NCBI GenBank assembly: GCA_023230485.1
Contig: JALNXG010000007.1
Location: 813 to 64,812 of the forward strand
DNA from: Melioribacteraceae bacterium
GTDB lineage: Bacteria; Bacteroidota; Ignavibacteria; Ignavibacteriales; Melioribacteraceae
Length of the DNA: 64,000 bases
Direction of reading: 5' to 3'
In this document: piece by piece, positions 34,487-46,630 of the stretch
Layout of the letters: every line of letters begins with the position of its first letter
Position numbering within the stretch: position 1 is the stretch's first letter
Program-made: the position numbers and the translations under genes
Notes under the pieces: generated by a model
Told to the model about the DNA's origin: nothing
Database searches by the model: none
What the model saw: the letters and a program-made list of their open reading frames with translations, nothing else

Positions 34487-34978
34487 ATGCACAATCATAT
34501 TTTTGAAAATTACGCTCCCGGAGAGAGAAGCAGTTTAATCGCTCTTTTGCAGGACGTCCAAGAAATTTATGGCTATTTACCTGAAGAAGCATTAAGAGAC
34601 ATTTCAGATTTTATAAAAGTACCTTTAAGCGGTATTTACGGAGTAGCAACTTTCTATAATCAATTCCGCTTGAAACCTTTAGGAAAAAATGTTATTAGAG
34701 TTTGCAGAGGAACTGCATGCCATGTAAAAAATTCTGCGAATATTCTTATGGCTTTAGAGTTGGAATTAGGTGTTAAAGCCGGAGATACTACCAGAGATAA
34801 ACTTTTTACTTTAGAAACAGTGGCATGTATCGGAGCTTGTAGTATTGCACCCGTAGTTAATATCAATCAAGAATATTTCGGAAGAGTTACGGTTAAAGAA
34901 ATTCCTAAAATTCTTAAAAAATATCGTCAAGAAGAAGCATTGAAATCGAAGTCAGAACAATCCGTGAGTGTAGAATGA
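34487..34978 (+). CDS. hydC: NuoE-like [2Fe-2S] subunit of HydABC-type hydrogenase (set 1)
   Basis: 163 aa with the thioredoxin-like [2Fe-2S] motifs CRGTACH and CIGACSIAP. Confidence 0.88.
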   Translation: MHNHIFENYAPGERSSLIALLQDVQEIYGYLPEEALRDISDFIKVPLSGIYGVATFYNQFRLKPLGKNVIRVCRGTACHVKNSANILMALELELGVKAGDTTRDKLFTLETVACIGACSIAPVVNINQEYFGRVTVKEIPKILKKYRQEEALKSKSEQSVSVE

Positions 34979-36960
34979 AAAATTTTATAGAAACCTGCTG
35001 TAATGAATGTTGGCATTCTAATGAAAATCCATGCGAACAGTTTGTGCTTTGCTGCACAGAGGGTCCACTTTGTCATCAGAATCCTGAATGTAAAGAGAAA
35101 TTTCAAAATCTAAATAAAGAACTACTTTATCAAAAACATGATATCCCTGTTATTTTTATCGGCATGGGAACTTGCGGACTTGCATCTGGTGCAGAAAAAG
35201 TTAAAGAAGCAATCGAAGCTGAACTTACAAAATTAAATATAGAAGCTCGAATAGTCCCAACCGGTTGTATCGGTTTTTGTGCTAGAGAAGTGATTGTTGA
35301 TATAAAAATTCCAAATGAAAAAAGAATTGCTTATTGTGAAGTTACACCAAAAGATGTTCCTGAGCTTATCAAAACAGCTATACTTGAAAAGAAAATTCTT
35401 GATAGAAAATTCCTTGGTATTCATGGAGAAGGAGATGTAGGTCATATTTGTATTGATCAAGTCCCGTTTTTCAAACGTCAGCATAAAATTGTTTTAGAAA
35501 AATGCGGTATTATTAATCCTGATTCTATTGATGAATATATTGCAAATGGCGGATTCAAAGCATTAGATAAAGCACTCAGAATAATGACGCCCGAAACTGT
35601 TGTAAAAGAAGTAAAAGATAGTGGACTTAGAGGTAGAGGGGGTGGAGGTTTCCCTACCGGTATGAAATGGGAAATTGCTCTTAAACAAAAAAATAATAAA
35701 AAATATATTATATGTAATGCAGATGAAGGTGATCCCGGTGCATTTATGGATCGTTCAGTTTTAGAGAGCGACCCTTATAAAATGGTCGAAGGTATTATGA
35801 TTGCCGCTTATGCAATTGGTGCTTCTTCGGGTTATGTTTACTGCCGTGCTGAATATCCGTTAGCCATCAAAAGAATATTGAATGCAATAGCTAAATGTAA
35901 AGAATATGGTCTTCTTGGTAATAATATTCTTGGAACAGATTTTTCATTCGAGCTAAAGATAAAAAAAGGTGCTGGTGCATTTGTATGCGGTGAAGAAACT
36001 GCATTAATTGCATCAATCGAAGGCAAGAGAGGAATGCCTAAACCACGTCCTCCTTACCCATCAATTTCAGGTTTATTTAATAAACCAACTGTTATCAATA
36101 ATGTTGAAACATTTGCAAATGTTACATCGATTATTAATAGGGGTGCCGGTTGGTTAAATTCAATCGGTACTAAAGCTAGCAAGGGCACTAAAGTATTCGC
36201 ACTTAGCGGTAACGTTAAATATAGCGGCTTAGTTGAAGTGCCAATGGGCGTTACCTTGCGGGAGGTAGTATTCGATATCGCCGGTGGAATTCCTGATGGA
36301 AAGAATTTCAAGGCAGTTCAAATTGGCGGTCCTTCGGGTGGATGTTTACCTGAATCTGTTATGGACACTGAAATTGATTATGAATCTTTGAAAAGCGTTG
36401 GTGCTATGATGGGGTCTGGCGGATTCGTAATCATGGATGAAGATACTTGTATGGTTGATGTAGCTAAATATTTCTTGAATTTTATTAAAGATGAATCATG
36501 CGGTAAATGCGTCCCATGTAGAGAAGGAACTAAACGTTTATTAGAAATTATTGAAAGAATCCCTACTGCATATTCTGAAAAAACTAATAAACTTGAACAG
36601 CTTCAAAGATTCAAAGGCATTATGCACATGCAAAGATTGGCTGATGTAATTAAAGACACTTCTCTTTGTGGTCTAGGACAGACTGCCCCGAATCCAATTC
36701 TCTCCGGTCTAAGATATTTCAGAGATGAATATGAAGAACATTTATATGAAAGACATTGTAAAGCCGGCGTTTGTAAAGAACTTTTAACCTATACAATTGA
36801 TAATGATATCTGTTCCGGATGTGGACTTTGCGCTAAGAAATGTTCTGTCGAAGCAATTGTAGGCGATAAAAAGATGCCTCATTATATTGTTCAAGAAAAA
36901 TGTATCAAATGCGGAATGTGTGTAGAAACTTGCCGATTTGAAGCTATTACAGTTAATTAA
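34975..36960 (+). CDS. hydB: NuoF-like FMN/NAD(P)H-binding Fe-S subunit (set 1, long form)
   Basis: 661 aa. In order: a Cys-rich leader, a [2Fe-2S] thioredoxin-like domain (GTCGLASG...GCIGFC), GRGGGGFPTGMKW, CNADEGDPGAF, ESCGKCVPCR, and two C-terminal CxxCxxCxxxC motifs. Confidence 0.9.
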   Translation: MKNFIETCCNECWHSNENPCEQFVLCCTEGPLCHQNPECKEKFQNLNKELLYQKHDIPVIFIGMGTCGLASGAEKVKEAIEAELTKLNIEARIVPTGCIGFCAREVIVDIKIPNEKRIAYCEVTPKDVPELIKTAILEKKILDRKFLGIHGEGDVGHICIDQVPFFKRQHKIVLEKCGIINPDSIDEYIANGGFKALDKALRIMTPETVVKEVKDSGLRGRGGGGFPTGMKWEIALKQKNNKKYIICNADEGDPGAFMDRSVLESDPYKMVEGIMIAAYAIGASSGYVYCRAEYPLAIKRILNAIAKCKEYGLLGNNILGTDFSFELKIKKGAGAFVCGEETALIASIEGKRGMPKPRPPYPSISGLFNKPTVINNVETFANVTSIINRGAGWLNSIGTKASKGTKVFALSGNVKYSGLVEVPMGVTLREVVFDIAGGIPDGKNFKAVQIGGPSGGCLPESVMDTEIDYESLKSVGAMMGSGGFVIMDEDTCMVDVAKYFLNFIKDESCGKCVPCREGTKRLLEIIERIPTAYSEKTNKLEQLQRFKGIMHMQRLADVIKDTSLCGLGQTAPNPILSGLRYFRDEYEEHLYERHCKAGVCKELLTYTIDNDICSGCGLCAKKCSVEAIVGDKKMPHYIVQEKCIKCGMCVETCRFEAITVN

Positions 36961-36982
36961 TTTGAAACCGGAGATAGAAAAA

Positions 36983-38713
36983 ATGTTAGAATTAACGATA
37001 AATAATATAAAAGTAAAAGCTGAAGAGGGGATGACGATTTTAGATGCAGCAAAATCAGTCGGTATTAATATTCCCACTTTATGCCATATGAAAGATTTGT
37101 TCCCAACCGGTGCATGTAGAATTTGCGTTGTAGAAGTCGATGGAATGCGCGGTTTAACTCCATCTTGTGCTTATCCGGTTATGGAAGGTATGAAAGTTCA
37201 AACAAATACTCCAAGAGTTAGAATTGCAAGAAAAACTATTGTAGAATTATTAATTGAAAACCATCCACAGGATTGTTTGGTTTGTGTCAGAAATAAAAAT
37301 TGCGAATTACAAGATTTGTCTGAGACCTATAACGTAAGAGAACATAGATACTGCGGCGAGAAAAAAGAACACGCAATTGATATTTCAAGTGCTTCTATGG
37401 AAAGAGATCCTGCTAAATGTATCCTTTGTGGTAGATGTGTTAGAATGTGCGGAGAAATTCAGAAAATCGGTGCTATTGATTTTACAAATAGAGGTTTTTA
37501 TAGCACCGTTACTACTCCATACAATATCGGATTAAACGTAAGTGATTGTATTCTTTGCGGTCAATGCATCCTTGTATGCCCTACTGCTGCTCTTAGAGAG
37601 AAAAGTAGTTCAAAAGAAGTAATGAATGCAATAACGGATAAAAAGAAATTTACCGTTGTTCAAGTAGCTCCTGCTGTTAGAGCATCTATCGGTGAAGAAT
37701 ATAATTTACCTCTTGGAACAAATGCAACCGGACAATTAGTAACAGGATTGAAACGACTTGGATTTGATAAAGTATTCGATACTAACTTTGCAGCCGATCT
37801 TACGATTATGGAAGAAGCATCCGAATTAATTAATAGAGTGAGCAATGGCGGAACATTACCAATGTTTACAAGTTGCTGCCCGGGCTGGGTTAAATATATC
37901 GAACAAAACAGTCCTGAATTACTCCCTCACGTTTCTACGTGTAAATCTCCTCATGAAATGGAAGGCGCAGTTCTAAAAACATACTATGCAAAAAAAATGG
38001 GATTGAAACCGGAAGAAATTTATGTAGTTTCTATAATGCCATGTACAGTTAAGAAATTCGAATCGGGGAGAGCAGAACTTTCTGAAGATAAATTACAGGA
38101 TGTAGATGCAGTTCTTACAACAAGAGAATTAGTACGATTATTCAAAGCTGCTGGAATTGATTTTAATGATCTACCGGAAGATAAATTTGATAATCCGCTT
38201 GGTGATTCTACAGGTGCTGCTGCAATATTCGGTACTTCAGGCGGTGTAATGGAAGCAGCTCTTAGAACTGCTTATTTCAAACTTACAGGAACCGAATTAG
38301 ATAATTTAGCTCTAGAAGATATGCGAGGCAATGATGGATTAAAAGCATCTACTATCGATATAAATGGTCTAGAAGTTAGAGTAGCTGTTGTTAATGGTAT
38401 TGGAAATGTCGGACCGGTTTTAGAAGAGATAAAGAATGGTACTTCTAGATATCATTTTGTAGAAGTTATGGCATGCCCCGGCGGTTGTATTAATGGCGGC
38501 GGGCAACCAATTCATCAAAAACCGGAAAAAGTGAAAAAACGTATTCAAGCTCTATATGAGATTGATTCGAAAATGAAAAATAGACGTTCGCATGAAAATG
38601 AGTCAGTTCAAAAACTATATAAAGAATTTTTAATAGAACCAAATAGTCATGTAGCTCATGAAGTACTACATACTACTTATGTAGATAGAAAAAAGATTCT
38701 AAGTAAAAAATGA
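36983..38713 (+). CDS. hydA: [FeFe]-hydrogenase catalytic subunit (M3-type, set 1)
   Basis: Canonical H-cluster motifs FTSCCPGW, MPCTVKKFE and EVMACPGGCINGGGQP. N-terminal [2Fe-2S], HPQDCLVC and 2x[4Fe-4S] domains. I chose the start at 36983 (GGAGA RBS); the ORF track starts at 36938. Confidence 0.93.
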   Translation: MLELTINNIKVKAEEGMTILDAAKSVGINIPTLCHMKDLFPTGACRICVVEVDGMRGLTPSCAYPVMEGMKVQTNTPRVRIARKTIVELLIENHPQDCLVCVRNKNCELQDLSETYNVREHRYCGEKKEHAIDISSASMERDPAKCILCGRCVRMCGEIQKIGAIDFTNRGFYSTVTTPYNIGLNVSDCILCGQCILVCPTAALREKSSSKEVMNAITDKKKFTVVQVAPAVRASIGEEYNLPLGTNATGQLVTGLKRLGFDKVFDTNFAADLTIMEEASELINRVSNGGTLPMFTSCCPGWVKYIEQNSPELLPHVSTCKSPHEMEGAVLKTYYAKKMGLKPEEIYVVSIMPCTVKKFESGRAELSEDKLQDVDAVLTTRELVRLFKAAGIDFNDLPEDKFDNPLGDSTGAAAIFGTSGGVMEAALRTAYFKLTGTELDNLALEDMRGNDGLKASTIDINGLEVRVAVVNGIGNVGPVLEEIKNGTSRYHFVEVMACPGGCINGGGQPIHQKPEKVKKRIQALYEIDSKMKNRRSHENESVQKLYKEFLIEPNSHVAHEVLHTTYVDRKKILSKK

Positions 38714-40686
38714 CAGGTATTGTAACCACGATACGACAACGATGCAGAAGATGTTATTCCTGCGTCAGAGAATGTCCTGCACAAGCCATTAAGGTAATTA
38801 ATGGTCAAGCAGTGGTAATCGAAGAACGCTGTATCGTGTGTGGGCATTGTGTTACTGTATGTTCACAAAATGCTAAACAAGTAGTAAATGATAAAGAATT
38901 AGTATTGAAACAGATATTGTCAAGCGGAAAGGCAGTAGCTATAATCGCTCCTTCCTTTCCTGTTTCTTTCCCTGATCACCACGAAAAGTTGGTTGGTGGA
39001 TTAAAAGAAATTGGATTTTCTCATGTTTGTGAAACTTCCTTTGGCGCGGATTTAGTTAGTCAGCTTTATCCAAAGTTTATTGAAGCAAACAAAGATAAAA
39101 CAATTATTAGTTCGCCTTGTCCGGCAGTTACAAATTGGATTGAGAAATATTATGTAGATCTCATACCTAATATAGCGACAATTGTATCTCCTATGATTGC
39201 AATGGGGAGATACTTAAAACAAAAATTAGGTGAAAATTATAGTGTTGTCTTTATTGGACCCTGTATTGCTAAGAAGAGTGAATATAAAGATGAAGAAGTG
39301 GCAGGTGATATTGATGCAGTACTGACGTTTGTAGAATTGCATGAGATATTCGAAGAATTAAGAATCGACTTAAATAAGTGTGATGAGATACCATTTGATC
39401 CTCCTTTTGCCAATATGGGTAAAACATATCCATTAACAGGCGGTTTACTTAAATCTTCTGAACTTTCAAATGATATCCTTCAGAATGATATTCTAGTAGT
39501 TGAAGGAAAAAAGAATGTAAAAAAAGTTATTCAGGAAATTAGCAACCAAAAAGTAAAAGCAAAATTTGTCGATATATTGTTTTGTGAAGGTTGCATAAAT
39601 GGACCTGCGGCAGGAAGTGATCTAGATAACTATTCACGCAAAATTAAAGTTGTTGATTACATAAACGAACACATTAATAATGTTGATAAAGCGGTTTGGA
39701 AAAGTGAGATATATAATAGCAGAGATTTGGATCTAACTAGAAGCTTTGATAATAAAAATCAAAGAAGACCTATGCCTTCCGAAGAAGAGATTAAAAAAAT
39801 TCTTGCTCAAACTGAAAAATATTTAGTTACAGATGAACTTAATTGTGGTTCTTGCGGATATCCCACTTGCAGAGAATATGCTATTGCAATTGCTAAAGGA
39901 TTAGCCGAAGAAGATATGTGTCTTCCTTATTTAATTGAAAAACTGGAAGACGCTAATAGAGAATTAAAAGAAACACAAGCACAATTACATAGTGCTGAAA
40001 AGTTAGCTTCTATTGGTCAGCTCGCAGCAGGTGTTGCTCATGAAATAAATAATCCGCTCGGTACAATTATGCTTTATGCTTCTATGATGAAACGTAAAAT
40101 GGAAAAAACTAATTGTTCTGAACAAAATAGCGAAGACCTTCAGTTAATAGTTGAAGAAGCAACTCGTTGTAAGAATATTGTAGCTAATTTATTGAACTTC
40201 GCTCGTCAAGGTAAAATAAAATTATCTACAATTAAATTAAATGATTTGATAACTAATATCGTCTCTGCTATTAAGATTAATCCAGAAAATTCTGATATAA
40301 TTATTAATCTTCACGATAATACAGAAGGTGCTATTATCGAAGGGGATTCAGATCAACTTAAACAAGTATTTCTTAATGTGCTTAATAATTCAGTTGAAGC
40401 TTTAGACGCAAGCTCAATAAAAAATATCACAATAAATATCGATCAAAATGAAGAAAGTATTATAACAAATATTATTGATACAGGTGTAGGTATTCCAGAA
40501 GAGAATATAAATAAACTTTTTACACCCTTCTTCACTACTAAAAAAATGGGTAAAGGTACTGGTTTAGGCTTAGCAATTACTTATGGAATTGTTAAAATGC
40601 ATAAGGGTGATATAACTGTAAAAACGATTTTAGGTAAAGGAAGTGATTTTAAAATCAAATTGCCAAAAATATTAATTAAAAAATAA
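38710..40686 (+). CDS. HydS-like putative sensory [FeFe]-hydrogenase domain fused to a histidine kinase
   Basis: 658 aa. The ATG overlaps the hydA1 stop (ATGA). Two CxxCxxCxxxC motifs sit at the N-terminus. The H-domain is degenerate but Cys-complete (SSPCPAV C137, GPCIAKKSE C185, FCEGC C292/C295). An extra motif C379-x2-C382-x4-C387-x16-C404 follows. The kinase part has the HisKA H-box AHEINNPL (His444) and HATPase_c boxes (DTGVGIP, GTGLGLAI). Confidence 0.85.
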   Translation: MTGIVTTIRQRCRRCYSCVRECPAQAIKVINGQAVVIEERCIVCGHCVTVCSQNAKQVVNDKELVLKQILSSGKAVAIIAPSFPVSFPDHHEKLVGGLKEIGFSHVCETSFGADLVSQLYPKFIEANKDKTIISSPCPAVTNWIEKYYVDLIPNIATIVSPMIAMGRYLKQKLGENYSVVFIGPCIAKKSEYKDEEVAGDIDAVLTFVELHEIFEELRIDLNKCDEIPFDPPFANMGKTYPLTGGLLKSSELSNDILQNDILVVEGKKNVKKVIQEISNQKVKAKFVDILFCEGCINGPAAGSDLDNYSRKIKVVDYINEHINNVDKAVWKSEIYNSRDLDLTRSFDNKNQRRPMPSEEEIKKILAQTEKYLVTDELNCGSCGYPTCREYAIAIAKGLAEEDMCLPYLIEKLEDANRELKETQAQLHSAEKLASIGQLAAGVAHEINNPLGTIMLYASMMKRKMEKTNCSEQNSEDLQLIVEEATRCKNIVANLLNFARQGKIKLSTIKLNDLITNIVSAIKINPENSDIIINLHDNTEGAIIEGDSDQLKQVFLNVLNNSVEALDASSIKNITINIDQNEESIITNIIDTGVGIPEENINKLFTPFFTTKKMGKGTGLGLAITYGIVKMHKGDITVKTILGKGSDFKIKLPKILIKK

Positions 40687-42999: not shown

Positions 43000-43473
43000 A
43001 TGCTTATTCTCGAAAAAAATGCAATGACTGAAGAAATTGAAAAGCTTGTAGAGAAATACGGACCTGAAAGGTCGTCTTTACTTCCAATTCTTCAAGACAT
43101 TCAACGAGATCACAAATCAATACCCGATTTTGCTCAACAAGAAGTAGCTCGTTTGTTAGATATTCATCCTGTTGAAGTTTTTAGTGTCATTTCATTTTAC
43201 GCATTTCTTAATACCGAAGCTAAAGGTAAATTCATCGTTCGTCTTTGTCGGACAATTACTTGCGATATTAAAGGTAAAGAAAGAATTGCACAAGCAATTG
43301 AACGTGAACTCGGTATTACTTTTGGTGAAACAACGAAAGATAATAAATACACATTAGAATATGCTAACTGCCTTGGAATGTGTGATCAAGGACCGGCTAT
43401 GTTAATTAATGATATCGTTTATGCAAATCTAACACCCGAAAAAGCAGTCAAAATTCTTAAGGGGGTTAAATGA
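43000..43473 (+). CDS. hydC: NuoE-like [2Fe-2S] subunit (set 2)
   Basis: 157 aa with CRTITCD and CLGMCDQGPA. Confidence 0.85.
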   Translation: MLILEKNAMTEEIEKLVEKYGPERSSLLPILQDIQRDHKSIPDFAQQEVARLLDIHPVEVFSVISFYAFLNTEAKGKFIVRLCRTITCDIKGKERIAQAIERELGITFGETTKDNKYTLEYANCLGMCDQGPAMLINDIVYANLTPEKAVKILKGVK

Positions 43474-44672
43474 TTATGGAAAAGACAAAAAGAGAAGGTT
43501 CAGTAATATTCTCTGAATATAAAAGAGGCGAAGGAATAAAAGCCGCTTTGGGTAAAAAGCGTGAAGATATTCTTTTAGAACTTCGTGAATCTAAAATTAA
43601 AGGTAGAGGCGGCGCAGGATTCCCAACTGCTACGAAATGGATGGTTGTAGCGGCTTCTACTGCTGAAATCAAATATGTTATATGTAACGCCGATGAAGGG
43701 GAACCTGGTACATTCAAAGACCGTGTGCTTTTAGTCGATTATCCTGAATTAGTTTTTGACGGTATGGTGATTGCGGGATATACAATCGGTGCTTCAAGGG
43801 GTATCGTTTATCTTCGTGGTGAATATGAATATGTAAGAAAACCATTAGAAGATTATTTAGAATCAATGAGAAAAGATAATTTGCTCGGGAATAACATTCT
43901 CGGTAAAGATGGATTCGATTTTGATATAACTATAAGAATGGGCTCTGGCGCATATATATGCGGCGAAGAAACCGCTTTAATTGAATCATTAGAAGGTAAT
44001 AGAGGAGAAGCTCGTAATAAGCCTCCTTACCCTGTAAATACAGGATTTTTTGGACGACCTACTGTTGTAAATAATGTTGAAACTTTAGCTGCTGTTTCTC
44101 ATATTTTAGTTAAAGGTGGCGATTGGTTTAGACAACATGGTACGGATAAATCTACCGGCTCTAAATTATTTTCTATTTCCGGCGATTGCGAAAAACCGGG
44201 TGTTTATGAATTACCTTGGGGCACTAAACTTTCGGAAATTCTTTTCCTTGTAGGTGCTAAAAATACTAAAGCAATTCAGGTTGGCGGTGCTTCCGGAATA
44301 TGTCTTAATAAAACTCAGTTCGATAGAACTTTAGCTTATGAAGATGCGGCAACAGGCGGCTCGATTATGATTTTTAATGAATCGAGAAATATGATTCACA
44401 TTCTTAAAAATTTCATGGAGTTTTTTGTTGAAGAATCTTGTGGTCAATGTACACCTTGTAGAATCGGTAATGTCAAATTACTCGAGGGTGTGAAAATGAT
44501 TCAATCAGGTGAATATACTTTCGATTATATCGAAAAGTTAATCGATCTTGGTAGAACAATGCAAGTAGCGTCTAAATGCGGTTTAGGTCAATCTTCTCCA
44601 AATCCGTTTATCTCGATTTTAGAAAACTTTAAAGATGAAATATTCAATGGAAACGGAGGATATAATGGATAG
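43470..44672 (+). CDS. hydB: NuoF-like FMN/NAD(P)H-binding subunit (set 2, short form)
   Basis: 400 aa with GRGGAGFPTATKW, CNADEGEPGTF and ESCGQCTPCR. It lacks the N-terminal [2Fe-2S] domain and the C-terminal ferredoxin domains present in set 1. Confidence 0.85.
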   Translation: MIMEKTKREGSVIFSEYKRGEGIKAALGKKREDILLELRESKIKGRGGAGFPTATKWMVVAASTAEIKYVICNADEGEPGTFKDRVLLVDYPELVFDGMVIAGYTIGASRGIVYLRGEYEYVRKPLEDYLESMRKDNLLGNNILGKDGFDFDITIRMGSGAYICGEETALIESLEGNRGEARNKPPYPVNTGFFGRPTVVNNVETLAAVSHILVKGGDWFRQHGTDKSTGSKLFSISGDCEKPGVYELPWGTKLSEILFLVGAKNTKAIQVGGASGICLNKTQFDRTLAYEDAATGGSIMIFNESRNMIHILKNFMEFFVEESCGQCTPCRIGNVKLLEGVKMIQSGEYTFDYIEKLIDLGRTMQVASKCGLGQSSPNPFISILENFKDEIFNGNGGYNG

Positions 44673-46584
44673 TAGAAAAGATTATAGAGCACCATTAAGT
44701 CAACAGCCACTGACAATCGAAAAGCCAACTGACCTTACTGCGATTGGCGGGACTATCACCGTTGAAATTAATGAAAAGAAAGTTGTTGTTCCATTAGGGA
44801 CTACAATTTTAGATGCATGTAAAATGGCAGGAATTAGTATCCCTACTTTATGCCATCATGAAGACCTTTGCATTGCAGGTGTTTGTCGTATATGCGTTGT
44901 TGAAGTCGAAGGAATGAGAACTCTACAAGCTTCTTGTGCCTTTCCAATTACAGCACCAATAAAAATAAAAACTTCTACACCTATGGTACGTAAAGCAAGA
45001 AGACATATTATTGACTTAATGCTAAGTGAACACTATGGCGAATGTTATTCTTGCGTCAGAAATGGTAACTGCGAATTACAGAATTTAGCTAAAGAGTATG
45101 GAGTAGATGGTTATACTTTTGGACATGTTGATAAACCACGCTATGAAATTGATCGCTCTTCTTATGCTGTTATTAGAGATATGAGTAAATGTATCTTATG
45201 TAAAAGATGTGTTAGAACTTGTATCGATCTTCAAGAAGTCGGTGTACTTGAATCAATAGGAAGGGGAGACATGACTCATATTTCCACTTTCTTAGAGAAA
45301 CCACTTTCAGACGTAATCTGTATTAATTGCGGTCAGTGTATTAATAGATGTCCCACTGCCGCTCTTAGAGCAAATGATCCATCTGATGAAATCTGGAGAG
45401 CAATTGACGATCCGAAAAAACACGTAGTAATTCAAACTGCACCATCACCTAGAGCTGCGATATGCGAAGAATTTGGAATGGAAGCAGGTACTTCTTTAAC
45501 TCAAGAGCTTAATACTGCATTAAAAAGAATTGGCTTCGATAAAGTATTTGATACCAATTTTACTGCAGATTTAACAATTATCGAAGAAGGCACTGAATTA
45601 ATAATTCGACTATACAAAGCATTAGTTGGTAAAGATGCTTCCGTTAGTCTTCCACAATTCACCTCATGCTCACCTGGATGGGTAAAATACTTAGAACATT
45701 ATTATCCTGAATATCTCGATAATCTAAGTAGTGCTAAATCACCTCAACAAATGTTCGGTTCACTTATTAAAACTTTTTATGCACAAAAGAATGGCGTTAA
45801 TCCTGAAGATATTGTTTCTGTTGCATTAATGCCTTGCTCAGCTAAAAAGTTTGAATGTAACCGTCCTGAAATGGCTGATTCTGGTTATAAAGACGTTGAC
45901 TATGGTCTTACAACACGCGAAATGGCAAAGATGATTAAGGAAGCAGGTATTAATCTCCCTGAAATGCCGAAATCACATTTCGATGATCCATTTGGTGAAG
46001 CTTCAGGTGCTGGATTAATTTTCGGAGCTACCGGCGGTGTTATGGAAGCTGCTATTAGAACAATAGTTGAGTTTATTACAGGTGCTAAAGCAGAAGATAT
46101 TTTTGCAAATGCAAACGTTGTTGATGTACGTGGATTTGATGGTATAAAATATATGGAAATTCCTCTTGGTGATAAATTTGGTCCTGTACCCGGTTTAATT
46201 GCTCATCTTGTTCCTAATTGGGATTGGCTCAAAGGTGCTACTCTTAAAGTTGCTGTAGCACACGGTACTGCGAATGCCAAAAAAGTAATGGATGATATTA
46301 AGGCAGGCGGTAAGTTTAGCGAGTGCCATTTTATAGAATTTATGGCATGCCCAGGCGGATGTCTTGGAGGTGGTGGTCAACCGATCCCAACAACTCCTGA
46401 AATTCGTATGAAACGCGCTCAAGCTATATATGCCGAAGATGAATCGCTTGAATTAAGAAAATCTCATGAGAATCCTCACATTACTAAGATTTATGAAGAG
46501 TTCTTAACCGAAGGTCCTTGTAGTCATTTATCGCACAAATTATTACATACACACTACGTAAAACGCGGTAAATATATTATTTAA
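44665..46584 (+). CDS. hydA: [FeFe]-hydrogenase catalytic-type subunit (set 2) with a variant L1 motif
   Basis: H-cluster motifs FTSCSPGW (variant), MPCSAKKFE and EFMACPGGCLGGGGQP. Same N-terminal Fe-S domain set as HydA1. I chose the start at 44665 (GGAGGA RBS); the ORF track starts at 44635. Confidence 0.9.
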   Translation: MDSRKDYRAPLSQQPLTIEKPTDLTAIGGTITVEINEKKVVVPLGTTILDACKMAGISIPTLCHHEDLCIAGVCRICVVEVEGMRTLQASCAFPITAPIKIKTSTPMVRKARRHIIDLMLSEHYGECYSCVRNGNCELQNLAKEYGVDGYTFGHVDKPRYEIDRSSYAVIRDMSKCILCKRCVRTCIDLQEVGVLESIGRGDMTHISTFLEKPLSDVICINCGQCINRCPTAALRANDPSDEIWRAIDDPKKHVVIQTAPSPRAAICEEFGMEAGTSLTQELNTALKRIGFDKVFDTNFTADLTIIEEGTELIIRLYKALVGKDASVSLPQFTSCSPGWVKYLEHYYPEYLDNLSSAKSPQQMFGSLIKTFYAQKNGVNPEDIVSVALMPCSAKKFECNRPEMADSGYKDVDYGLTTREMAKMIKEAGINLPEMPKSHFDDPFGEASGAGLIFGATGGVMEAAIRTIVEFITGAKAEDIFANANVVDVRGFDGIKYMEIPLGDKFGPVPGLIAHLVPNWDWLKGATLKVAVAHGTANAKKVMDDIKAGGKFSECHFIEFMACPGGCLGGGGQPIPTTPEIRMKRAQAIYAEDESLELRKSHENPHITKIYEEFLTEGPCSHLSHKLLHTHYVKRGKYII

Positions 46585-46594
46585 TTCATTTAGG

Positions 46595-46630
46595 GTCTTA
46601 GCAGTCAATTGGCTGCTAAGATTTATTTTA
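46595..46630 (+). terminator. Rho-independent terminator after hydA2
   Basis: Stem (T)CTTAGCAG at 46596-46604, loop TCAATTGG, CTGCTAAG(A) at 46613-46621, followed by TTTATTTTA. Confidence 0.7.

What the first reader, a model, noticed from the sequence alone, without database searches (positions are those of the whole stretch)
45661..45681. HydA2 has TSCSPGW instead of the canonical TSCCPxW H-cluster motif
Seen:
- Codons 45661-45681 read acc tca tgc tca cct gga tgg, giving T-S-C-S-P-G-W, in frame with the ORF.
- HydA1 in the same locus has TSCCPGW.
- The L2 (MPCSAKKFE) and L3 (EFMACPGGCLGGGGQP) motifs of HydA2 are canonical.

Established: in Clostridium pasteurianum CpI numbering, the first Cys of the pair (C299) is the proton relay to the bridging amine. 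The second (C300) ligates the [4Fe-4S] subcluster.

Inference, three alternatives:
- A Ser replaces a cluster ligand, giving unusual Ser ligation or altered potential.
- The local register is shifted so the single Cys ligates and the proton relay is lost.
- It is a sequencing error.

Either of the first two would predict atypical catalytic bias or a non-catalytic role for set 2. I cannot recall whether this variant defines a known subgroup.
Basis: partly seen in the sequence, partly recalled or inferred. Interest (0 to 1): 0.6.

Follow-up and report, generated by a model that had tools for sequence, protein, structure and literature searches.

The report
Known serine ligand in [FeFe]-hydrogenase HydA
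The second hydrogenase gene in this locus really does encode a serine where textbook enzymes have an iron-sulfur-binding cysteine. This is a conserved and common natural variant, already seen in a solved, fully active enzyme, so the finding is real but ordinary.

Summary
Window 45661-45681 encodes T-S-C-S-P-G-W in frame in hydA2 (44635-46584). Ser346 (TCA, 45670-45672) sits at the CpI Cys300 position, the [4Fe-4S]H ligand. The proton-relay Cys (Cys345, CpI C299) is intact.

It is not a sequencing error. All 79 orthologues from other Ignavibacteriota species genomes read TSCSPGW, and they use three synonymous Ser codons.

It is not rare. About 20% of diverse HydA representatives carry Ser here (26 of 133). 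They are scattered over the tree with at least 9 well-supported Cys/Ser switches. This matches the "about 20%" quoted by Kertess et al. 2017.

It is already characterised. Acetobacterium woodii HydA (PDB 7Q4V/7Q4W/8A5E) is the best solved relative and has the identical motif. Katsyv et al. 2023 describe Ser301 as a ligand of the H-cluster cubane, with normal infrared signatures and activity.

HydA2 keeps L2, L3 and the whole proton pathway, so an atypical or non-catalytic role is not indicated.

The more informative feature of set 2 is its 400-aa HydB2, which carries every sequence marker of non-bifurcating NADH-dependent enzymes.

This scan has noted the same motif 86 times in at least 84 other genomes.

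The parts
45661..45681 (+). H-cluster motif L1 of HydA2, TSCSPGW. Cys345 (45667-45669) is the proton relay (CpI C299). Ser346 (TCA, 45670-45672) replaces the [4Fe-4S]H ligand (CpI C300, A. woodii S301, T. kivui C299, CrHydA1 C115).
   Evidence: ungapped alignment to 7q4v_A and CpI; literature
44635..46584 (+). hydA2, a group A multimeric-type [FeFe]-hydrogenase catalytic subunit (649 aa as the longest ORF). The conserved start is probably Met11 at 44665.
   Evidence: Met11 is an invariant column in 26 aligned sequences, and orthologues are 637-639 aa.
45829..45855 (+). Motif L2, MPCSAKKFE (Cys401 = CpI C355, Lys404 = K358, Met399 = M353).
46336..46383 (+). Motif L3, EFMACPGGCLGGGGQP (Cys572 = CpI C499; Cys576 = C503, the bridging Cys).
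43470..44672 (+). hydB2, a minimal 400-aa NuoF-like subunit with the FMN/NADH core and one [4Fe-4S] only. It carries the non-bifurcating markers T/K (GEPGTFKDR), Y (GAYICGEE) and GGASG.
   Evidence: Losey 2020 criteria and Table S1; conserved next to all orthologues
43000..43473 (+). hydC2, a NuoE-like thioredoxin-like [2Fe-2S] subunit.
   Evidence: PF01257, 3.8e-47
46593..46624 (+). Terminator-like hairpin (14-bp stem plus T-rich tail), 9 nt after the hydA2 stop codon.
36938..38713 (+). hydA1, the paralogue with canonical TSCCPGW. It sits next to a long HydB1 (661 aa) with the bifurcating markers A/M/F/GGPSG.

Best explanation
HydA2 is a catalytically competent group A [FeFe]-hydrogenase subunit. 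One of the four protein ligands of the [4Fe-4S] part of its H-cluster is a serine (Ser346) instead of a cysteine. The serine oxygen most likely coordinates the cubane iron directly, as Ser301 does in Acetobacterium woodii HydA. The adjacent Cys345 keeps its normal job as proton relay to the bridging amine. The substitution is a long-fixed, selectively maintained and functionally tolerated state, and it has switched with Cys many times in HydA evolution. It does not mark a dead or sensory enzyme. Together with a minimal HydB2 and HydC2, HydA2 most likely forms a non-bifurcating, NADH-linked HydABC hydrogenase. It works alongside the canonical bifurcating set 1 in the same locus. Shown here: the sequence, its conservation, its frequency and the homology. 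Inferred: Ser-O ligation, activity and NADH-only coupling in this particular protein.
For: 1. The motif is real and in frame.
2. All 79 orthologues in other Ignavibacteriota genomes have TSCSPGW, with TCA/TCG/TCT Ser codons. This indicates purifying selection on Ser. 117 of 121 close homologues also have it.
3. The best PDB match is A. woodii HydA (7q4v_A, 594.7 bits). It has the identical TSCSPGW in a 65-residue ungapped alignment. It is also the top structural match of the model (7q4w_A, 46% identity).
4. Katsyv et al. 2023 (PMC10021017) state that a Cys ligand of cluster A1 is replaced by Ser301 in A. woodii. [quoted passage not shown]
5. Ser occupies this position in 26 of 133 diverse representatives. 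These are spread over the tree with 20 parsimony changes, at least 9 of them forced by well-supported branches. Kertess et al. 2017 quote about 20%.
6. HydA2 and 17-18 of 18 Ser-type representatives keep CpI E279, E282, R286, C299, S319, M353, C355, K358, C499 and C503.
7. HydB2 meets all four Losey 2020 non-bifurcating markers. It matches the 409-aa I. album protein that the paper lists as non-bifurcating.
Against: No biochemical data exist for this protein or any Ignavibacteriota orthologue. The engineered equivalent change in Chlamydomonas HydA1 (C115S) abolished cubane binding and activity, so tolerance of Ser depends on context and cannot be assumed from the motif alone. The effect of Ser on cluster potential or catalytic bias has not been measured, even in A. 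woodii, as far as the papers read here show. The AlphaFold model is of low confidence (mean pLDDT 61.8, no cofactors), so ligand geometry was not tested. In the draft assembly only hydE was found above threshold; hydG and hydF were not. Reads could not be inspected.
Confidence: 0.8

Rival explanations
1. The serine is adaptive tuning, not near-neutral. An oxygen ligand shifts the [4Fe-4S]H potential and thereby the catalytic bias. In this organism that would match the H-cluster to NADH-only (non-bifurcating) electron input.
For: In this genome the one Ser-type HydA pairs with the one non-bifurcating-type HydB, while both HydAs next to GGPSG-type HydB are Cys-type. Ser has been held across the whole orthologue set. 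Neighbouring positions tend to change with it. Gly at +2 occurs in 17/18 Ser-type versus 38/96 Cys-type. Bulkier residues at 353 occur in 13/18 versus 18/96. Among 9 Ser/Cys sister pairs, 353 goes the same way in 6 and the opposite way in 1, and 350 Ile versus Val goes the same way in 5 and the opposite way in 0. Other cubane-ligand Cys-to-Ser/Asp variants of CrHydA1 changed catalytic bias.
Against: A. woodii HydA is Ser-type but partners a bifurcating HydB (599 aa, A/M/F/GGPSG), so Ser is not tied to the non-bifurcating type. Its FTIR signature and activities resemble the Cys-type T. kivui enzyme. The many Cys/Ser switches among close relatives fit drift between near-equivalent states. The co-variation tests are under-powered (sign tests p about 0.06-0.25).
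Confidence: 0.12
2. Register shift: the single remaining Cys345 binds the cubane, Ser346 is a bystander, and the proton relay is lost. This would give a slow or non-catalytic enzyme.
For: Kertess et al. suggested that in CrHydA1 C115A the neighbouring Cys114 might take over ligation.
Against: Alignment to CpI and A. woodii HydA is ungapped through the motif and its flanks. The A. woodii structure assigns Ser301 as the ligand, and that enzyme is highly active, which requires the relay Cys. The rest of the proton pathway (E318, E321, R325, S365) is strictly kept in HydA2 and its orthologues, which would be pointless without the relay.
Confidence: 0.03
3. HydA2 is a non-catalytic, sensory or regulatory hydrogenase homologue.
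For: The locus is rich in signalling genes: a HydS-like kinase, three receivers and two more kinases downstream. Di Rienzi 2013 reported TSCSPGW together with a lost L3 cysteine in two Melainabacteria proteins.
Against: HydA2 has intact L2 and L3, the full proton pathway and the small-subunit domain. It sits in a hydC-hydB-hydA operon ending in a terminator. The true sensory-type protein in the locus (38710-40686) has a quite different L1 region and a kinase fusion. HydA2 scores above the cut-off of the catalytic A6 family.
Confidence: 0.03
4. Sequencing or assembly error: the true codon is TGY.
For: None beyond the departure from the textbook motif. Reads could not be checked.
Against: TCA is two substitutions away from TGC/TGT. 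The 96%-identical relative and 78 further species genomes all encode Ser, with three synonymous codons.
Confidence: 0.01

Closest known systems
Acetobacterium woodii HydA1 of the electron-bifurcating HydABC(D) complex (PDB 7Q4V, 7Q4W, 8A5E; Katsyv et al. 2023, PMC10021017)
   Same: Identical L1 motif TSCSPGW with Ser at the cubane-ligand position. Same domain order: [2Fe-2S], His-ligated [4Fe-4S], 2x[4Fe-4S], H-domain, small-subunit tail. It is the best sequence and structural match in the PDB and has HydB and HydC partners.
   Different: Only 46% identical. HydA2 has a 7-residue insertion just before L1 and a roughly 24-residue insertion near residues 510-535. The A. woodii partner HydB is the long bifurcating type (599 aa, GGPSG), whereas HydB2 is the minimal 400-aa type.
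Predicted non-bifurcating NADH-dependent [FeFe]-hydrogenases (Syntrophus aciditrophicus HydAB, Syntrophomonas wolfei Hyd1ABC; Losey et al. 2017, 2020)
   Same: HydB2 lacks the N-terminal [2Fe-2S] and C-terminal 2x[4Fe-4S] domains and has T, K, Y and no GGPSG. Losey's Table S1 lists the Ignavibacterium album orthologue (409 aa, T/K/Y/GGASG) in this class.
   Different: No Ignavibacteriota enzyme has been purified. Whether the characterised Syntrophus and Syntrophomonas HydA subunits carry Ser or Cys at this position could not be determined here.
Clostridium pasteurianum CpI and Thermoanaerobacter kivui HydA (all-Cys H-cluster, TSCCPxW)
   Same: Same fold, the same L2 and L3 motifs and the same proton pathway.
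   Different: Cys300 (CpI) or Cys299 (Tk) is Ser346 in HydA2.
Engineered CrHydA1 C115S (Kertess et al. 2017, PMC5855289)
   Same: The same Cys-to-Ser change at the same ligand position.
   Different: The engineered variant lost the cubane and all activity (<1 U), whereas natural Ser-type enzymes such as A. woodii are active. The natural scaffold must therefore accommodate Ser.

Membership tests
[FeFe]-hydrogenase, catalytic group A | L1 motif TSCCPxW with both cysteines | tested here: not met
   The motif is TSCSPGW and the second Cys is Ser346. This departure is itself a documented variant within group A: about 20% of sequences and A. woodii HydA.
[FeFe]-hydrogenase, catalytic group A | L2 MPCxxKxxE and L3 ExMxCxxGCxxG motifs | tested here: met
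   MPCSAKKFE and EFMACPGGCLGGGGQP
[FeFe]-hydrogenase, catalytic group A | Proton-transfer pathway (CpI E279, E282, R286, S319, C299) | tested here: met
   E318, E321, R325, S365 and C345, from the alignment to CpI
[FeFe]-hydrogenase, catalytic group A | Profile score above curated thresholds | tested here: met
   TIGR02512 scores 475 bits (cut-off 406). NF040763 'group A6' scores 800 bits (cut-off 765).
[FeFe]-hydrogenase, catalytic group A | H2 turnover with a matured H-cluster; hydE, hydF and hydG present | tested here: inconclusive
   hydE was found (269 bits, above the cut-off) on a short contig. hydG and hydF were not found above the cut-off in a 93%-complete, 177-contig draft. Activity is not testable with these tools.
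Ser-ligated H-cluster type (A. woodii HydA1) | Ser at the CpI C300 position in an otherwise intact L1, aligned without gaps | tested here: met
Ser-ligated H-cluster type (A. woodii HydA1) | Ser oxygen actually bound to the cubane iron | not testable with these tools
   The AlphaFold model has no cofactors and a mean pLDDT of 61.8. Ligation is inferred from the A. woodii cryo-EM structure.
Multimeric HydABC (HydDB A3 / Calusinska A6) | HydA with N-terminal [2Fe-2S], NuoG-type [4Fe-4S] and 2x[4Fe-4S]; adjacent NuoF-like and NuoE-like genes | tested here: met
   Pfam domains; gene order hydC2-hydB2-hydA2 with overlapping junctions
Non-bifurcating NADH-dependent HydAB(C) (Losey 2020) | HydB without the accessory N- and C-terminal Fe-S domains; T/S at TmHydB 232, K/S/A at 234, Y at 367, no GGPSG | tested here: met
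   HydB2 is 400 aa with only Complex1_51K and NADH_4Fe-4S. It has GEPGTFKDR, GAYICGEE and GGASG. The markers are given.
Non-bifurcating NADH-dependent HydAB(C) (Losey 2020) | Ferredoxin-independent NADH-to-H2 activity | not testable with these tools
   This needs an enzyme assay.
Sensory [FeFe]-hydrogenases (group C/D, HydS-like) | Loss of the proton-relay Cys and the proton pathway; fusion to or association with signalling domains | tested here: not met
   HydA2 keeps C345 and the pathway and has no signalling domain. The HydS-like protein of the locus is a different gene (38710-40686).

The most novel reading that the evidence does not exclude
The Cys/Ser state of this cubane ligand may be a recurrently used evolutionary 'dial'. 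It would only be permitted on a particular local scaffold (Gly at +2, bulkier aliphatic residues at +4 and +7 on the following helix). It would shift the H-cluster potential, and in Ignavibacteriota it would be fixed to suit a non-bifurcating, NADH-only hydrogenase that works at very low H2 pressure.
Probability: 0.12. Interest if true: 0.45.

Novelty: already known. Interest (0 to 1): 0.15.

Why it matters
It matters little as a discovery. Serine at this H-cluster ligand position is documented in about a fifth of HydA sequences and has been seen in a solved, active enzyme. Annotators should therefore not treat TSCSPGW as a defect or as a sign of a sensory protein.

Two small points remain of interest to specialists. 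First, the engineered Cys-to-Ser change kills the algal enzyme while natural Ser-type enzymes work, so the scaffold features that permit oxygen ligation are still undefined. Second, nobody has measured whether Ser shifts the cluster potential. This organism carries Ser-type (non-bifurcating-like) and Cys-type (bifurcating-like) complexes side by side under one sensory unit. That makes it a convenient natural pair for such a comparison.

Tried and rejected
2. Hypothesis that TSCSP marks non-bifurcating enzymes. It holds inside this genome. It is rejected as a rule because A. woodii is Ser-type with a bifurcating HydB.
3. Hypothesis that TSCSP defines one clade. This is rejected: Ser-type rows are scattered, with 20 parsimony changes and at least 9 forced by supported branches.
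4. Co-variation of neighbouring residues with Ser. The trends are consistent at 348, 350, 353 and 355, but there are only 6-9 independent contrasts and no test reaches 0.05.
5. Structure model. The shallow alignment gave a mean pLDDT of 61.8, with the N-terminal Fe-S domains poor. It was used only to confirm the fold match to 7q4w_A, and no ligand geometry was derived.
6. Context look-ups of distant Ser-type representatives were not attempted. Those proteins came from the representative search, and the context tool does not accept them.
7. Whether the characterised S. wolfei and S. aciditrophicus HydA subunits are Ser- or Cys-type could not be determined.
8. Therien 2017 and Morra 2022 were checked for mention of the variant, and none was found.

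Full report
**Observation**

The bases at 45661-45681 are acc tca tgc tca cct gga tgg. They lie in frame in the ORF 44635-46584 (+), which translates without stops to 649 residues. The motif is T343-S344-C345-S346-P347-G348-W349. The paralogue HydA1 (36938-38713) reads TSCCPGW.

The ORF is a bona fide multimeric-type HydA:
- Pfam finds Fer2_4, NADH-G_4Fe-4S_3, ferredoxin-type 4Fe-4S domains, Fe_hyd_lg_C (1.5e-85) and Fe_hyd_SSU.
- NCBIfam places it above the curated cut-offs of '[FeFe] hydrogenase, group A' and 'NADH-dependent [FeFe] hydrogenase, group A6' (800 bits against 765).

**Which residue is changed**

HydA2 aligns without gaps through the motif and its flanks to Clostridium pasteurianum CpI and to the A. 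woodii and T. kivui HydA chains. Counting along the CpI chain gives:
- Cys345 = CpI C299, the proton relay.
- Ser346 = CpI C300, the [4Fe-4S]H ligand.

The same position is Ser301 in A. woodii, Cys299 in T. kivui and Cys115 in the numbering of Kertess et al. for Chlamydomonas HydA1, where Cys114 is the neighbour.

There is a 7-residue insertion in HydA2 in the loop before the motif. It lies upstream of the conserved P-x-F-T-S-C stretch and does not shift the register.

**Not an error**

- Of the 121 closest proteins in the 5.8-billion-protein collection (81-95% identical), 117 contain FTSCSPGW. The other four did not match the pattern and were not examined further.
- A scan of one genome per species returned 80 loci, all Ignavibacteriota. 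They include cultured Melioribacter sp. Ez-97 and Rosettibacter primus, and the nearest is 'bacterium BRH_c32' at 96%.
- In all 79 loci where the gene could be read the motif is TSCSPGW.
- The Ser codon is TCA in 43, TCG in 18 and TCT in 18, while the preceding Cys is TGC in 42 and TGT in 37.

Synonymous turnover with an unchanged amino acid is the signature of purifying selection on serine. TCA is also two substitutions away from either Cys codon.

**How common and how distributed**

An exhaustive HMMER search of 1.84 billion 50%-identity representatives returned 150 best hits. After the H-domain was cut out and aligned, 26 of 133 rows with a residue at this column have Ser. That is about 20%. 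Of these, 18 have the fully catalytic-looking [TS]SCSP pattern, against 96 with [TS][ST]CCP.

On a FastTree tree built without the motif columns, the Ser rows are not one clade. Parsimony needs 20 changes, and well-supported branches alone force at least 9. Nine Ser/Cys sister pairs can be read directly from the tree.

Named members include Natronincola peptidivorans and a Clostridia MAG. One Ser-type representative is a 1192-aa sequence held as an MMETSP transcript. Di Rienzi et al. 2013 noted TSCSPGW in Melainabacteria.

The figure agrees with Kertess et al. 2017. [quoted passage not shown]

**Already characterised**

The best PDB match of HydA2 is chain A of 7Q4V/7Q4W/8A5E (594.7 bits), which carries the identical TSCSPGW. 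These entries are the A. woodii electron-bifurcating HydABC. Katsyv et al. 2023 state three things:
- In HydABC from A. woodii one cysteine ligand of the A1 cluster (Cys299 in T. kivui) is replaced by Ser301.
- The A. woodii complex showed infrared signatures and activities similar to the all-Cys T. kivui complex.

A low-confidence AlphaFold model of HydA2 (mean pLDDT 61.8; H-domain blocks mostly 70-85) finds 7q4w_A as its best structural match (E 1.9e-45, 46% identity). I draw nothing about ligand geometry from it.

**Is HydA2 otherwise catalytic?**

Yes, by sequence. The equivalents of CpI E279, E282, R286, C299, S319, M353, C355, K358, C499 and C503 are all conserved in HydA2. Each is conserved in 17-18 of the 18 Ser-type representatives, and the Cys-type group shows similar conservation.

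The gene ends an operon hydC2-hydB2-hydA2 with overlapping junctions. A strong terminator-like hairpin follows at 46593-46624.

One caveat concerns maturation. In the draft assembly (93% complete, 177 contigs) hydE is present on a short contig. hydG and hydF were not detected above the family cut-offs. I take this as probably an assembly gap, but it is unverified.

**What set 2 probably is**

HydB2 (43470-44672, 400 aa) has only the FMN/NADH core and the NuoF-type [4Fe-4S]. HydB1 (661 aa) adds a Cys-rich leader and two C-terminal ferredoxin-type clusters. Losey et al. 2020 gave four sequence markers separating bifurcating from non-bifurcating beta subunits:

| Subunit | Position 232/234 context | Position 367 context | SLBB motif | Class by Losey markers |
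|---|---|---|---|---|
| HydB1 | GDPGAFMDR (A, M) | GAFVCGEE (F) | GGPSG | bifurcating |
| HydB2 | GEPGTFKDR (T, K) | GAYICGEE (Y) | GGASG | non-bifurcating |

These strings are read. Losey's supplementary table lists a 409-aa Ignavibacterium album protein with T/K/Y/GGASG as non-bifurcating. It lists the 661-aa I. album and Melioribacter roseus proteins as bifurcating. A short GGASG-type HydB precedes the Ser-type HydA in nearly all of the 79 orthologous loci. The exceptions are a few loci cut short by contig ends.

The genome's third HydA, on contig C73, is Cys-type and follows a GGPSG-type HydB. Within this organism, therefore, Ser goes with the non-bifurcating-type partner.

This is not a general rule. 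A. woodii HydB is 599 aa with A/M/F/GGPSG, yet its HydA is Ser-type.

**A residual puzzle**

Kertess et al. found that C115S, C115A and C115D in the algal enzyme lose the cubane, take up no [2Fe] subsite and have no activity. Natural Ser-type enzymes must therefore provide a permissive scaffold. I looked for residues that travel with Ser:

| HydA2 position | State | Ser-type | Cys-type |
|---|---|---|---|
| 348 | Gly | 17/18 | 38/96 |
| 353 | Leu/Ile/Met | 13/18 | 18/96 |
| 355 | His/Thr | 14/18 | 11/96 |

In the nine sister pairs, position 353 is bulkier in the Ser partner in six and in the Cys partner in one. Position 350 is Ile against Val in five pairs and never the reverse.

With only 6-9 independent contrasts, no test reaches significance (p about 0.06-0.25). 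This is a lead, not a result.

**Verdict**

The 'Ser replaces a ligand' reading is the right one. The expectation of unusual catalysis or a non-catalytic role is not supported. The variant is common, recurrent and already published with a structure.

The same motif has been raised 86 times in at least 84 other genomes by this scan. The follow-ups shown there reached the same conclusion. I reached it independently through before looking.

Novelty: already known. Interest: low.

Noticed in passing
window 43470-44672: HydB2 is a minimal 400-aa NuoF-like subunit that carries all four Losey 2020 sequence markers of non-bifurcating NADH-dependent hydrogenases (T, K, Y, GGASG). HydB1 (34975-36960) carries the bifurcating set (A, M, F, GGPSG). 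The organism therefore seems to hold both enzyme types in one locus.
   Followed up: yes
window about 46150-46240 (HydA2 residues about 508-535) and 45625-45645 (residues about 331-337): HydA2 and its orthologues have two insertions relative to HydA1, A. woodii HydA and CpI. One is about 24 residues with conserved Pro, Trp and Leu positions (P510, G516, P519, P527, W529, W531). The other is 7 residues in the loop just before L1. Their role is unknown.
   Followed up: no
G000 contig C73, loci L002/L005: A third hydrogenase set lies elsewhere in the genome. It has a Cys-type HydA (TSCCPGW, MPCTAKKVE) after a GGPSG-type HydB, followed by a second HydS-like gene (L1 region GTSCPSF).
   Followed up: partly
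G000 whole assembly; hydE at C131:2271-3278 (-): Only the maturase hydE is detectable above threshold. hydG and hydF are not found in the 93%-complete draft, although the genome encodes three catalytic-type HydAs. This is probably an assembly gap.
   Followed up: partly
window 44635-44667: The longest ORF of hydA2 starts at 44635 and overlaps hydB2 by 38 nt. Met11 (44665) is the invariant start in orthologues of 637-639 aa, so the true start is probably 44665.
   Followed up: partly
protein P0153 (from the representative search): This is a 1192-aa sequence held as an MMETSP transcript. It has a Ser-type L1 (TSCSPGW) at its N-terminal HydA part and a long C-terminal extension with no NuoF-type motifs. 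Its Cys-type sister P0143 has the same length.
   Followed up: no
window 46593-46624: A 14-bp-stem terminator-like hairpin lies 9 nt after the hydA2 stop. No comparable site lies between hydC2 and hydA2.
   Followed up: partly
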